Assembly: GCF_003334815.1 (NCBI RefSeq)
Contig: NZ_QOWO01000090.1
Strand: one strand, 5' to 3'
Length of the DNA stretch: 1,979 nucleotides
Origin: Escherichia coli
Lineage (GTDB): Bacteria; Pseudomonadota; Gammaproteobacteria; Enterobacterales; Enterobacteriaceae
The notes below the pieces were generated by a model, which was not told the origin of the DNA, searched no databases, and saw only the letters and a program-made list of their open reading frames with translations. The translations under genes were made by a program, and so were the position numbers. The stretch's first letter is position 1, and each line of letters starts with the position of its first letter. This document shows, piece after piece, positions 1 to 1,979 of the stretch.

Positions 1-810
1 AACCAGATGGACCCGGTGTACACGCCGGCGCGAAAAATCCACCTGTACCACTGCGACCATCGCGGCCTGCCGCTGGCGCTTGTCAGCACGGAAGGGGCAA
101 CAGAATGGTGCGCAGAATACGATGAATGGGGCAACCTGCTGAATGAAGAGAACCCGCATCAGCTGCAGCAGCTTATCCGCCTGCCGGGGCAGCAGTATGA
201 TGAGGAGTCCGGCCTGTATTACAACCGCCACCGCTATTATGACCCGCTGCAGGGGAGGTATATCACTCAGGATCCGATTGGGCTGAAGGGGGGATGGAAT
301 TTTTATCAGTATCCGCTGAATCCGGTTCAGTATATAGATTCAATGGGACTGGCATCAAAATATGGACACTTAAATAATGGCGGATATGGAGCGAGACCCA
401 ACAAACCGCCTACGCCCGATCCAAGTAAATTGCCGGACATAGCGAAACAATTAAGACTGCCATATCCTATTGACCAGGCCAGTAGTGCGCCTAATGTTTT
501 CAAAACATTCTTCAGAGCATTAAGCCCTTACGACTACACACTGTATTGCAGGAAGTGGGTAAAACCAAATCTGACTTGTACGCCACAGGATGATTCCCAG
601 TATCCAGGGATGGATACAAAGACAGCAAGTGATTACCTGCCACAGACAAATTGGCCAACAACTCAATTACCACCAGGATATACTTGTGCAGAACCCTATT
701 TATTCCCAGACATTAATAAACCCGATGGGCCAGCAACAGCAGGGATAGATGATTTGGGTGAAATTTTAGCTAAGATGAAACAGAGAACATCGAGAGGAAT
801 AAGAAAATGA
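1..810 (+). CDS. Rhs-family polymorphic toxin, 3' portion (5'-partial; gene begins upstream of the window). Core end is 1-351, variable C-terminal tip is 352-807, stop TGA is 808-810.
   Basis: Frame 1 is open from base 1; the ATG at 7 is an internal Met, not the true start. The translation ends in a typical Rhs core terminus (YDEWGNLL...[45 protein letters not shown]) with the DPxGL-(17 aa)-DxxGL boundary motif, followed by an unrelated 152-aa extension. GC content by eye falls from high-50s percent to about 40 percent at position 352. Confidence 0.9.
352..807 (+). other. Variable Rhs C-terminal tip (putative toxin domain, about 152 aa, unassigned family)
   Basis: Begins immediately after DSMGL (ends at nt 351). 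AT-rich relative to the core. Pro/Tyr/Thr-rich, with 3 Cys (residues 181, 191 and 227 of the track ORF). No nuclease, deaminase or ADP-ribosyltransferase motif recognisable by eye. Confidence 0.6.
794..798 (+). promoter_or_regulatory. Ribosome-binding site for the downstream immunity ORF
   Basis: GAGGA lies 8 nt upstream of the ATG at 807, inside the 3' end of the toxin CDS. Confidence 0.45.
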
Positions 811-1376
811 AAAGAGTTTTGTTCTTTTTGCTGATGATATTTGTTAGTTTTGGTGTTATAGCTGATTGCGAAATACAAGCTAAAGATCATGATTGTTTTA
901 CTATTTTCGCTAAGGGTACTATTTTTTCCGCGTTTCCTGTCTTAAATAATAAAGCCATGTGGAGATGGTATCAGAATGAGGACATCGGTGAGTATTATTG
1001 GCAAACAGAACTGGGTACATGTAAAAATAATAAATTCACACCAAGCGGGGCGAGACTCTTAATTCGCGTCGGGTCACTACGCCTTAATGAAAATCATGCC
1101 ATCAAAGGAACGTTGCAGGAGTTGATAAATACAGCAGAAAAAACGGCGTTTCTCGGCGATCGGTTTAGAAGTTATATAAGAGCGGGTATCTATCAAAAAA
1201 AGAGCAGTGATCCAGTTCAGTTGTTGGCAGTCCTTGATAATTCAATCATGGTAAAATATTTTAAAGATGAGAAACCAACTTATGCTCGAATGACAGCACA
1301 TCTCCCGAACAAAAATGAGTCTTACGAATGTTTAATAAAGATACAGCATGAACTAATTCGTAGTGAAGAGAAATAA
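807..1376 (+). CDS. Putative Rhs immunity protein (189 aa) with predicted N-terminal Sec signal peptide; function inferred from position only
   Basis: The ATG at 807-809 overlaps the toxin TGA at 808-810 (ATGA). A GAGGA Shine-Dalgarno sits at 794-798, 8 nt upstream. The N-terminus [22 protein letters not shown] has a basic n-region, a hydrophobic core and a V-I-A signal peptidase I-like site. AT-rich like the toxin tip. Its position directly 3' of the Rhs tip is the canonical immunity gene location. Confidence 0.75.
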
Positions 1377-1446
1377 AATCTCTTCCTGAGAAAACAAATT
1401 AATCATTGTGAAAAATTATATAACTCATGGAATAGGTGTTTATTTT

Positions 1447-1601: not shown

Positions 1602-1979
1602 ATGGAACTTAAAAAATTGATGGAACATATTTCTATTATTCCCGATTACAGATAAGCCTGGAAAGTAGAGCATAAATTGTCAGGCATCCTACTATTGACT
1701 ATTTTTGCCGTTATTTCTGGTGCAGAAAGTTGGGAAGATATAGAGGATTTCGGGGAAACACATCTCGATTTCTTGAAGCAATATGGTGATTTTGAAAATG
1801 GTATTCCTGTTCACGATACTATTGCCAGAGTTGTATCCTGTATCAGTCCTGCAAAATTTCACGAGTGCTTTATTAACTGGATGCGTGATTGCCATTCATC
1901 AAATGATAAAGACGTCATTGCAATTGATGGAAAAACGCTCCGGCACTCTTATGACAAGAGTCGCCGCAGGGGAGCGATT
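1602..1979 (+). pseudogene. H-repeat-associated protein / ISAs1-family transposase, N-terminal part (3'-partial, runs off window), interrupted by an in-frame TAA at 1653-1655
   Basis: Frame 3 translation: [125 protein letters not shown]. From memory this matches the N-terminus of enterobacterial H-rpt (ISAs1-family) transposases, which are classically found next to Rhs elements. The stop sits where I recall homologs having Gln (CAA). Confidence 0.8.
1602..1979 (+). mobile_element. H-rpt / ISAs1-family insertion element, left portion. The true left boundary probably lies somewhere in 1377-1601 but cannot be placed.
   Basis: Transposase reading frame as above. No terminal inverted repeat can be defined because the right end is outside the window. 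Confidence 0.6.

What the first reader, a model, noticed from the sequence alone, without database searches (positions are those of the whole stretch)
807..1376. Candidate immunity protein carries a signal peptide, suggesting a periplasm-acting toxin
The 189-aa ORF directly 3' of the tip starts [19 protein letters not shown]|DCE, a textbook Sec signal with a V-I-A cleavage site. The predicted mature protein has 4 Cys (an even number, compatible with disulfides). An exported immunity protein implies its toxin acts in the periplasm or on the envelope (cell wall, membrane or lipid), which is less common for Rhs tips than cytoplasmic nucleases. The whole pairing is inference from gene order.
Basis: inference. 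Interest (0 to 1): 0.75.

Follow-up and report, generated by a model that had tools for sequence, protein, structure and literature searches.

The report
Exported YbfC, likely Rhs-toxin immunity protein
The ORF is the known but uncharacterised E. coli gene ybfC, an exported, disulfide-bonded protein that always sits behind one small cysteine-containing Rhs toxin tip, so it most likely protects the cell envelope from that toxin; this is a sensible, untested lead rather than a surprise.

Summary
Window 807-1376 is E. coli ybfC (189 aa), identical to the K-12 protein. Its start overlaps the Rhs stop by 4 bp (ATGA). The N-terminus has signal-peptide architecture: MKR, a 16-residue hydrophobic stretch, then V-I-A|D, with no lipobox. 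That architecture is kept in 39-40 of 40 homologues down to about 20% identity. The mature protein has 4 Cys. Cys21 and Cys72 are gained or lost together at least 3 times, and Cys30/Cys175 are near-invariant. This argues for two disulfides and therefore a periplasmic protein.

YbfC homologues lie directly 3' of homologous Rhs tips in Citrobacter, Kluyvera and distant metagenomic lineages. They occur on full-length and orphan Rhs genes and also alone, which is how immunity genes behave.

The 152-aa tip is hydrophilic and proline-rich, with 3 invariant Cys. It has no Pfam, PDB-sequence or fold match. YbfC models confidently as a beta-sandwich with no close solved relative.

I could not run SignalP, a complex prediction or any experiment, so immunity and periplasmic action remain inference and the toxin's activity is unknown. 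The tip+ybfC module is in about 65% of complete E. coli genomes.

The parts
1..351 (+). 3' end of the Rhs core (the reading frame runs off the 5' edge of the window). It ends with the DPxGL-type motif DSMGL (nt 337-351), which marks the core/tip boundary.
   Evidence: NCBIfam RHS_core NF041261 positions 1147-1261 of 1261 and TIGR03696 match residues 1-115 of the ORF. Pfam RHS PF03527 also matches. In strain E2865 this is the end of a 1399-aa full-length Rhs.
352..810 (+). Rhs C-terminal tip (152 aa plus stop), the candidate toxin. It is hydrophilic, 14% Pro, pI 9.1, with 3 invariant Cys and the conserved core SPYDYTxYCxKWxKxxLxC...PGxDxKT..DYxP...GYxCxxPxxFP.
793..798 (+). Shine-Dalgarno-like AGAGGA, 8 nt upstream of the ybfC ATG and inside the end of the Rhs ORF.
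   Evidence: Read directly from the sequence.
807..810 (+). ATGA overlap: the ybfC start codon (807-809) and the Rhs stop codon (808-810). This suggests translational coupling.
   Evidence: The same 4-bp overlap is seen in loci L002-L010 and L014.
807..863 (+). Predicted Sec signal peptide of YbfC (residues 1-19, [19 protein letters not shown]), with predicted signal peptidase I cleavage after A19.
   Evidence: Rule-based features and their conservation in 39-40 of 40 homologues. Residues 1-20 have low pLDDT (52-54) in the model.
864..1376 (+). Mature YbfC (residues 20-189) plus stop, predicted to be a periplasmic beta-sandwich. Cys codons are at 867-869 (C21), 894-896 (C30), 1020-1022 (C72) and 1329-1331 (C175). 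Inferred disulfides are C21-C72 and C30-C175.
1602..1979 (+). Start of an ISAs1-family (H-repeat) transposase pseudogene (ybfD-like) with an in-frame TAA at 1653-1655. It marks the end of the Rhs element and is not part of the toxin/immunity pair.
   Evidence: RefSeq annotation of the identical locus and the sequence itself.

Best explanation
ybfC encodes the periplasmic immunity protein for the toxin tip at window 352-807 of the Rhs protein. In detail:

1. The Rhs protein and YbfC are made from one transcript with coupled translation, through the ATGA overlap and the internal Shine-Dalgarno sequence. The overlap and SD are shown; the coupling is inferred.
2. YbfC is exported by Sec and cut by signal peptidase I after Ala19. 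It is then oxidised to two disulfides (C21-C72 and C30-C175) and folds into a soluble beta-sandwich in the periplasm. The signal-peptide architecture, the Cys covariation and the fold model are shown; cleavage and location are inferred.
3. The Rhs protein releases its 152-aa tip after the DSMGL motif and is delivered into neighbouring cells, most likely by a type VI secretion system. This step is inferred.
4. The tip is a small hydrophilic domain with three invariant Cys. It folds and acts in the oxidising periplasm of the target, on a soluble or surface-exposed envelope target such as cell-wall synthesis, rather than by inserting as a pore. The compartment is inferred and the target is a guess.
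5. YbfC binds the incoming tip in the periplasm and neutralises it. This step is inferred.
For: - The signal-peptide features are present and conserved across 40 homologues.
- The four Cys are invariant in Enterobacteriaceae. Cys21 and Cys72 are jointly present or absent (28 both, 10 neither), with at least 3 independent joint changes. Cys30 and Cys175 are both present in 39 of 40.
- The AF2 model is confident for residues 21-184 and leaves the N-terminal 20 residues detached.
- The toxin-immunity gene order is conserved with homologous tips at about 70% tip and 60-67% YbfC identity in Citrobacter and Kluyvera, at different chromosomal sites.
- It is also conserved at about 40% tip and 28-31% YbfC identity in metagenomic loci L008 and L014, and with a still more distant Cys-rich tip in L018.
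- The pair occurs on full-length Rhs genes (L001, L004, L005), as orphan modules (K-12 L017; L002, L008), and as immunity-only genes (L012, L016).
- Related loci carry vgrG or T6SS genes next to the Rhs.
- The tip and ybfC stay together in 3518 of the 3615 E. coli genomes that have any part of the module.
- The tip has no hydrophobic segment; its maximum 19-residue Kyte-Doolittle value is 0.14.
- Precedent: T6SS effectors that need DsbA in the target periplasm (PMC5792426, listed).
Against: - There is no experimental evidence for toxicity, binding, export or cleavage, and no trained signal-peptide predictor was run.
- The tip model is only moderately confident. It has no recognisable catalytic motif and no invariant His, so its activity is unknown.
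- Three Cys is an odd number, so at most one disulfide can form within the tip.
- The N-terminal PAAR match of the full-length Rhs is weak and partial (E 0.18).
- The window's own locus has no adjacent vgrG or T6SS genes.
- To my knowledge K-12 lacks a T6SS yet keeps the module, so the delivery route is uncertain.
- I had no access to model coordinates, so Cys-Cys distances could not be checked.
Confidence: 0.65

Rival explanations
1. YbfC is a periplasmic immunity protein, but the tip's real target is cytoplasmic. YbfC would protect by capturing the incoming tip in the periplasm before it crosses the inner membrane.
For: PAAR-Rhs effectors are typically cytoplasm-acting (PMC11996579). The tip is basic (pI 9.1) with a basic C-terminal tail, which would suit a nucleic-acid target. 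The Rhs cage could shield the producer's own cytoplasm, which is general knowledge about Rhs proteins (the review literature is listed).
Against: To my knowledge, immunity proteins of characterised cytoplasm-acting Rhs or CDI toxins are cytoplasmic. The tip has three invariant Cys, and its partners in distant loci are also Cys-rich, which suits an oxidising compartment. The tip matches no nuclease, ART or deaminase family.
Confidence: 0.12
2. YbfC is membrane-tethered rather than soluble. It would be either a lipoprotein acylated on Cys21 or a protein held by an uncleaved N-terminal anchor, with the domain still in the periplasm, protecting at a membrane surface.
For: Several homologues have lipobox-compatible sequences ending at the Cys21 position (ALAC, ASAC, SFAC, VFAC), and P0123 has ISSC. 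The EHEC RhsE immunity protein was predicted to be a lipoprotein (PMC7216683).
Against: E. coli YbfC has D (or N) at -1 of Cys21, which violates the lipobox. Cys21 co-varies with Cys72, as expected for a disulfide partner and not for an acylated Cys. The hydrophobic stretch is 16 residues here and 10-13 in many homologues, which is short for a transmembrane anchor. A (-3,-1) site follows it in all 40 sequences.
Confidence: 0.08
3. YbfC is not an immunity protein. It would be a secreted accessory or unrelated cargo of the Rhs element, for example an adhesin-like or carbohydrate-binding beta-sandwich, with immunity provided elsewhere or not needed.
For: The fold has weak resemblance to Ig V-set, carbohydrate-binding and DOMON-like sandwiches. 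There is no experimental evidence of neutralisation. K-12 keeps the gene although, to my knowledge, it has no T6SS.
Against: YbfC is strictly adjacent to the tip and translationally overlapped with it, and it diverges together with one tip family across distant taxa. No other small ORF lies between the tip and the IS element. Orphan tip+ybfC modules and immunity-only copies are typical of immunity genes.
Confidence: 0.1
4. The tip is a membrane-inserting, pore-forming toxin like Tse5-CT, and YbfC blocks it at the inner membrane.
For: Rhs pore-formers that act on the envelope exist (Tse5, PMC10684867, listed).
Against: The tip has no hydrophobic or amphipathic segment long enough to insert. Its maximum 19-residue hydropathy is 0.14, its GRAVY is -0.82, and it is 14% Pro. 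YbfC has no membrane segment apart from its signal peptide.
Confidence: 0.05

Closest known systems
Periplasm-acting T6SS effector/immunity pairs (Tse1-Tsi1, Tae-Tai, Tle-Tli, Tox-Act1/Imm-Act1)
   Same: The immunity protein carries an export signal and is encoded directly 3' of the toxin. Protection is needed in the periplasm because sister cells inject the toxin there. Tox-Act1 is toxic only in the periplasm (PMC11996579), and the Tli1 lipoprotein binds Tle1 1:1 (PMC6730261).
   Different: YbfC and the tip match none of these families by sequence or fold. Here the toxin is the tip of an Rhs protein rather than a free cargo effector, and no amidase or lipase catalytic motif is present.
Serratia marcescens Ssp2/Ssp4, T6SS effectors that depend on DsbA in the target cell
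   Same: These are small periplasm-acting effectors whose activity needs disulfide formation in the recipient's periplasm (PMC5792426, abstract). The tip's three invariant Cys suggest the same dependence.
   Different: No homology was detected, and the dependence on DsbA is only inferred here.
Tse5 (RhsP1) / Tsi5 of Pseudomonas aeruginosa
   Same: It is an Rhs protein whose tip acts on the cell envelope rather than on a cytoplasmic target (PMC10684867).
   Different: Tse5-CT is a hydrophobic pore-former. The window's tip is hydrophilic with no insertable segment, and YbfC is predicted to be soluble.
Colicin M/Cmi and pesticin/Pim (from my own knowledge, not tested here)
   Same: These are periplasm-acting bacteriocins neutralised by exported, periplasm-facing immunity proteins.
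   Different: The delivery route is different (Ton/Tol import). The tip lacks the colicin M catalytic signature and any lysozyme-like fold.
EHEC RhsE and its predicted lipoprotein immunity RhsEI
   Same: This is another E. coli Rhs locus whose downstream small ORF carries an export signal, already taken to imply envelope action (PMC7216683).
   Different: It is a different tip and a different immunity protein (61 aa, lipoprotein). That paper examined the rhsC immunity candidate of EDL933 (z0853) but reported only weak motifs and no signal peptide.

Membership tests
Sec-type (signal peptidase I) cleavable signal peptide | Positively charged n-region | tested here: met
   K2 and R3 give a net charge of +2 before the hydrophobic core. 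39 of 40 homologues have at least 1 K or R there.
Sec-type (signal peptidase I) cleavable signal peptide | Hydrophobic h-region shorter than a transmembrane span | tested here: met
   Residues 4-19 form a 16-residue stretch with mean Kyte-Doolittle 2.9. Many homologues have only 10-13 residues. 39 of 40 have a 10-residue core with KD of at least 2.0.
Sec-type (signal peptidase I) cleavable signal peptide | Small or neutral residues at -3 and -1 of the cleavage site | tested here: met
   The site is V17-I18-A19|D20. A (-3,-1)-compatible site follows the h-region in 40 of 40 sequences.
Sec-type (signal peptidase I) cleavable signal peptide | Positive call by a trained predictor (SignalP, DeepTMHMM) or experimental N-terminus | not testable with these tools
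   No such predictor or experiment was available.
Bacterial lipoprotein (signal peptidase II lipobox) | [LVI][ASTVI][GAS]-C lipobox, with Cys as the first mature residue | tested here: not met
A PROSITE-like pattern is absent in the window protein and in all Enterobacteriaceae homologues. Cys21 co-varies with Cys72.
Polymorphic-toxin (Rhs) immunity protein | Encoded immediately 3' of the toxin tip on the same strand | tested here: met
   There is a 4-bp overlap in the window and in L002-L010 and L014.
Polymorphic-toxin (Rhs) immunity protein | Co-occurs and co-diverges with one toxin family across genomes and contexts, including orphan modules and immunity-only copies | tested here: met
   Tips next to YbfC homologues are homologous at 70% and about 40% identity, and more distantly. 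Orphan modules are seen in K-12 and L002/L008. Immunity-only copies are seen in L012 and L016.
Polymorphic-toxin (Rhs) immunity protein | Binds its cognate toxin and neutralises it | not testable with these tools
No complex prediction or experiment was possible.
PAAR-Rhs type VI secretion effector (the upstream gene) | Rhs/YD-repeat core ending in the Rhs-associated core domain with a DPxGL-type motif | tested here: met
   NF041261 and TIGR03696 match up to DSMGL. Pfam RHS also matches.
PAAR-Rhs type VI secretion effector (the upstream gene) | N-terminal PAAR domain | tested here: inconclusive
   The N-terminus reads MSGKPAARQGD.... The Pfam PAAR_motif match has E 0.18 and covers only model positions 51-69 of 70. 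DUF6531 is clearly present.
PAAR-Rhs type VI secretion effector (the upstream gene) | Genetic linkage to vgrG or T6SS genes | tested here: inconclusive
   None is present at this locus (kdp-ybfA-rhsC-ybfC-IS). Linkage is present next to homologous modules in L002/L003 (vgrG), L008 (Gp5/DUF2169/PAAR-like) and L014/L015 (SciN, VasE, DotU).
Known immunity or toxin domain families (Pfam, NCBIfam, PADLOC, PDB) | Significant sequence or fold match | tested here: not met

The most novel reading that the evidence does not exclude
The tip and YbfC define a new, structurally unassigned family of periplasm-acting Rhs toxin and exported immunity protein. The toxin would be a small disulfide-dependent domain that is inactive in the reducing cytoplasm and is switched on by the target cell's own Dsb system, and it would hit an envelope target by a mechanism unlike the known amidase, muramidase, lipase and pore-former classes. 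Because about 65% of complete E. coli genomes carry the module, including K-12, orphan copies could act as a widespread immunity reservoir.
Probability: 0.4. Interest if true: 0.6.

Novelty: new member of a known kind. Interest (0 to 1): 0.4.

Why it matters
Most characterised Rhs tips are cytoplasmic nucleases, ADP-ribosyltransferases or NADases. An Rhs tip that acts in the periplasm, paired with an exported immunity protein, would widen the known range of Rhs payloads. The pair has no Pfam family and no solved relative, yet it sits in roughly two thirds of complete E. coli genomes, including the laboratory strain K-12. It is therefore cheap to test, and the result would assign a function to two long-standing 'y-genes' (ybfC and the ybfO-type tip). 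It could also reveal a new envelope target or a toxin fold that depends on disulfide formation.

Tried and rejected
- Family searches. Pfam, NCBIfam and PADLOC scans of YbfC and the tip, singly and for every alignment member, gave no family.
- PDB sequence profiles. The best tip hits were 4hcs (uncharacterised 81-aa protein, E 0.23) and complement C1s CCP domains (E 0.33). The best YbfC hit had E 0.12. None is significant, and I rejected all of them.
- Spurious homologues. Two 'homologues' with many repeated matches (P0102, 4825 aa; P0110, 695 aa) were discounted. P0110 is a low-complexity repeat protein. The P0102 sequence was not retrieved, so I set it aside by analogy only.
- Lipoprotein reading. 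Rejected for E. coli because D precedes the Cys and because of the Cys21-Cys72 covariation.
- Uncleaved anchor with a cytoplasmic domain. Rejected because of the positive N-terminus, the short h-region and the covarying Cys pairs.
- Pore-former reading. Rejected on hydropathy.
- Literature. Searches for YbfC, YbfO, b0704, Rhs-CT and orphan Rhs found no functional study of this pair. The supplementary tables of the Salmonella survey were not held.
- L011 (next to P0080). The upstream gene is not an Rhs tip, but the contig is only 2 kb, so this is uninformative.

Full report
**What the window is.** The 1979-bp window is 100% identical to the rhsC locus of many Shiga-toxin-producing E. coli chromosomes. 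In strain E2865 the annotated order is kdpFABCDE, ybfA, a 1399-aa 'RHS element core protein', ybfC, an ISAs1-family transposase pseudogene (ybfD), then ybgA.

- Window 1-351 is the end of the Rhs core. NCBIfam RHS_core and TIGR03696 match up to the DSMGL motif, and Pfam RHS also matches.
- Window 352-810 is the variable C-terminal tip (152 aa).
- Window 807-1376 is ybfC.
- Window 1602-1979 is the start of the IS pseudogene, with an in-frame stop at 1653-1655.

GC content falls from 0.60 in the core to 0.44 in the tip and 0.33-0.41 in ybfC, the usual composite structure of Rhs elements.

**Checking the observation.** The ybfC ATG overlaps the Rhs TGA (ATGA at 807-810), and an AGAGGA lies 8 nt upstream.

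The N-terminus has a +2 n-region and a 16-residue hydrophobic stretch (residues 4-19), followed by V-I-A before D20. The Cys at position 21 is preceded by D, so there is no lipobox.

I could not run SignalP, so I tested the prediction by conservation instead. In 40 homologues spanning 20-99% identity:

- 39 have a basic residue before the hydrophobic core.
- 39 have a strongly hydrophobic 10-residue core within the first 30 residues.
- All 40 have a (-3,-1)-compatible site just after it.
- Sequence identity in this segment (0.17-0.24) is lower than in the mature part (0.29-0.33).

A conserved pattern on a drifting sequence is how signal peptides behave. In many homologues an Asp limits the hydrophobic core to 10-13 residues, which is too short for a membrane anchor. 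In the AlphaFold model (mean pLDDT 88.5) residues 1-20 are low-confidence and lie outside the globular domain.

**Is the domain really extracytoplasmic?** The four Cys are invariant in the Enterobacteriaceae homologues. In the wider family found by the exhaustive HMMER search (alignment), Cys30 and Cys175 are both present in 39 of 40 sequences.

Cys21 and Cys72 are both present in 28 sequences and both absent in 10. The two apparent exceptions (P0122, P0123) have a signal-peptide Cys misaligned into that column. On a neighbour-joining tree built without the Cys columns, the joint state changes at least three times, and always for both positions together.

This is the signature of two structural disulfides, C21-C72 and C30-C175, which form in the periplasm and not in the cytoplasm. 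It also argues that Cys21 is a disulfide partner rather than a lipidated Cys, even in the homologues where the preceding residues would fit a lipobox. I could not check Cys-Cys distances because model coordinates are not exposed.

**Is it the immunity protein of the upstream tip?** The evidence here is conserved gene order:

- YbfC homologues at 60-67% identity in Citrobacter and Kluyvera lie directly 3' of an Rhs ORF, with the same 4-bp overlap. They sit at different chromosomal sites (priA/rpmE-metJ and mpl-pmbA), on full-length Rhs genes and on orphan fragments behind vgrG-linked Rhs genes.
- The tips of those Rhs genes are about 70% identical to the window's tip.
- Homologues at 28-31% identity in metagenomic contigs L008 and L014 again follow an Rhs tip with a 4-bp overlap. 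Those tips are recognisably the same family at about 40% identity, with the shared core SPYDYTxYCxKW...PGxDxKT..DYxP...GYxC..P.YFP. L008 and L014 also carry T6SS genes.
- A 22%-identical homologue (P0123) follows an Rhs tip that keeps a diverged form of the motif (VCYKWEC...NDFIP...PGCKC).
- P0109 follows another small Cys-rich Rhs tip.
- Some homologues occur alone or in small arrays (L012, L016, L019), as orphan immunity genes do.

Within E. coli, the tip+ybfC module is present in 3518 of 5426 complete genomes. The two parts are nearly always together.

In K-12 MG1655 the identical module is an orphan behind rhsC-ybfB, whereas in the window's strain it is fused to the full-length rhsC. So the module moves by recombination, as polymorphic-toxin cassettes do.

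**What the two proteins look like.**

- *The tip.* It is 152 aa, pI 9.1, 14% Pro and strongly hydrophilic, with no insertable segment. All homologues found are Rhs-associated. Invariant positions include three Cys, several Tyr/Trp/Pro and a few Asp, but no His. It has no Pfam hit in any member and no significant PDB hit. Its model is moderate: core pLDDT is 77-86, the flanks are poor, and the mean is 65. It has no fold match. Its biochemical activity therefore cannot be assigned.

**Most likely mechanism.** The Rhs protein and YbfC are co-translated. YbfC is exported by Sec, cleaved after A19 and oxidised, and it stays in the periplasm. The Rhs tip is released after DSMGL and delivered into neighbours, most likely by a T6SS. 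The small Cys-containing hydrophilic tip folds and acts in the periplasm on a soluble or surface-exposed envelope target, and YbfC binds it there.

- *Shown:* the signal-peptide architecture, the Cys covariation, the conserved pairing and the hydrophilicity of the tip.
- *Inferred:* cleavage, localisation, binding, delivery route and compartment of action.
- *A guess:* the target.

A DsbA-dependent, periplasm-acting effector has precedent in Serratia (PMC5792426, listed), and an envelope-acting Rhs tip has precedent in Tse5 (PMC10684867, listed).

The delivery step is the weakest inferred link:

- The N-terminal PAAR match is partial (E 0.18).
- No T6SS genes flank this locus.
- To my knowledge K-12 has no T6SS.

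**Rivals.**

- *Periplasmic interception of a cytoplasm-bound toxin.* This cannot be excluded (about 0.12).
- *A membrane-tethered YbfC.* This is unlikely for E. coli (about 0.08).
- *A non-immunity accessory role.* This is hard to reconcile with the co-divergence of the pair (about 0.1).
- *A pore-former.* This is disfavoured by hydropathy (about 0.05).

**Comparison with what is known.** The ORF itself is the known gene ybfC. It is named as such in RefSeq and was listed as a 'putative secreted protein' co-upregulated with rhsC in HUS-associated STEC (PMC6033998).

An in-silico study of EHEC Rhs loci treated the gene after rhsC as the candidate immunity protein but reported no signal peptide for it. 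It did note a lipoprotein signal on the RhsE immunity candidate (PMC7216683).

I found no functional study of this pair. A recent survey states that PAAR-Rhs effectors typically reach cytoplasmic targets (PMC11996579), so a periplasm-facing Rhs immunity protein is uncommon but not unprecedented.

I therefore class it as a new member of a known kind: a periplasm-acting T6SS-type effector/immunity pair carried on an Rhs scaffold, whose toxin and immunity folds have no assigned family.

**Verdict.** Interest is moderate at 0.4. The module is widespread, uncharacterised and easy to test, but the idea fits existing T6SS paradigms and the gene was already flagged as secreted.

Noticed in passing
window 1602-1979: This is the start of an ISAs1-family (H-repeat) transposase pseudogene (ybfD-like) with an in-frame TAA at 1653-1655. 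It bounds the Rhs element on the 3' side.
   Followed up: partly
L001 8611-13376 versus L017 1401-8037: In the window's strain the tip is fused to the full-length 1399-aa rhsC. In K-12 MG1655 the identical tip+ybfC is an orphan module behind rhsC (different tip) and ybfB. This looks like a tip replacement by recombination between the main gene and the orphan.
   Followed up: partly
window 1-1400: GC content steps down from 0.60 (Rhs core) to 0.44 (tip) and 0.33-0.41 (ybfC). This is consistent with a horizontally acquired cassette.
   Followed up: no
homologues P0084, P0090, P0099, P0108, P0119, P0123: Some family members have lipobox-compatible sequences ending at the first Cys, while E. coli does not. 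Parts of the family may be lipoproteins, or the A-x-A|C context may simply serve signal peptidase I.
   Followed up: partly
L019 2221-2589 and 3783-4151; L012 5898-6491; L016 158-775: YbfC-family genes occur as truncated duplicates or as lone genes without an adjacent homologous tip. In L012 the gene sits behind a different Rhs tip and its own small ORF. These look like orphan immunity genes.
   Followed up: partly
window 778-807 and tips in A5: The tip ends in a conserved basic tail (R..RGxRK). The last codons are constrained by overlap with the M-K start of the immunity gene's signal peptide, so part of this conservation may reflect the dual coding.
   Followed up: no
L001 8611-9210, Pfam scan: The full-length Rhs starts MSGKPAARQGD..., but it matches only the last 19 positions of the Pfam PAAR motif (E 0.18), followed by DUF6531. 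Whether this class of 'neighbourless' E. coli Rhs protein is loaded on a T6SS spike is unclear.
   Followed up: partly
L020 2200-2817 and L018 1-606: Rhs tips paired with the most distant YbfC homologues are also small and Cys-rich (5 Cys each). This suggests that the whole immunity family serves disulfide-rich toxins.
   Followed up: partly
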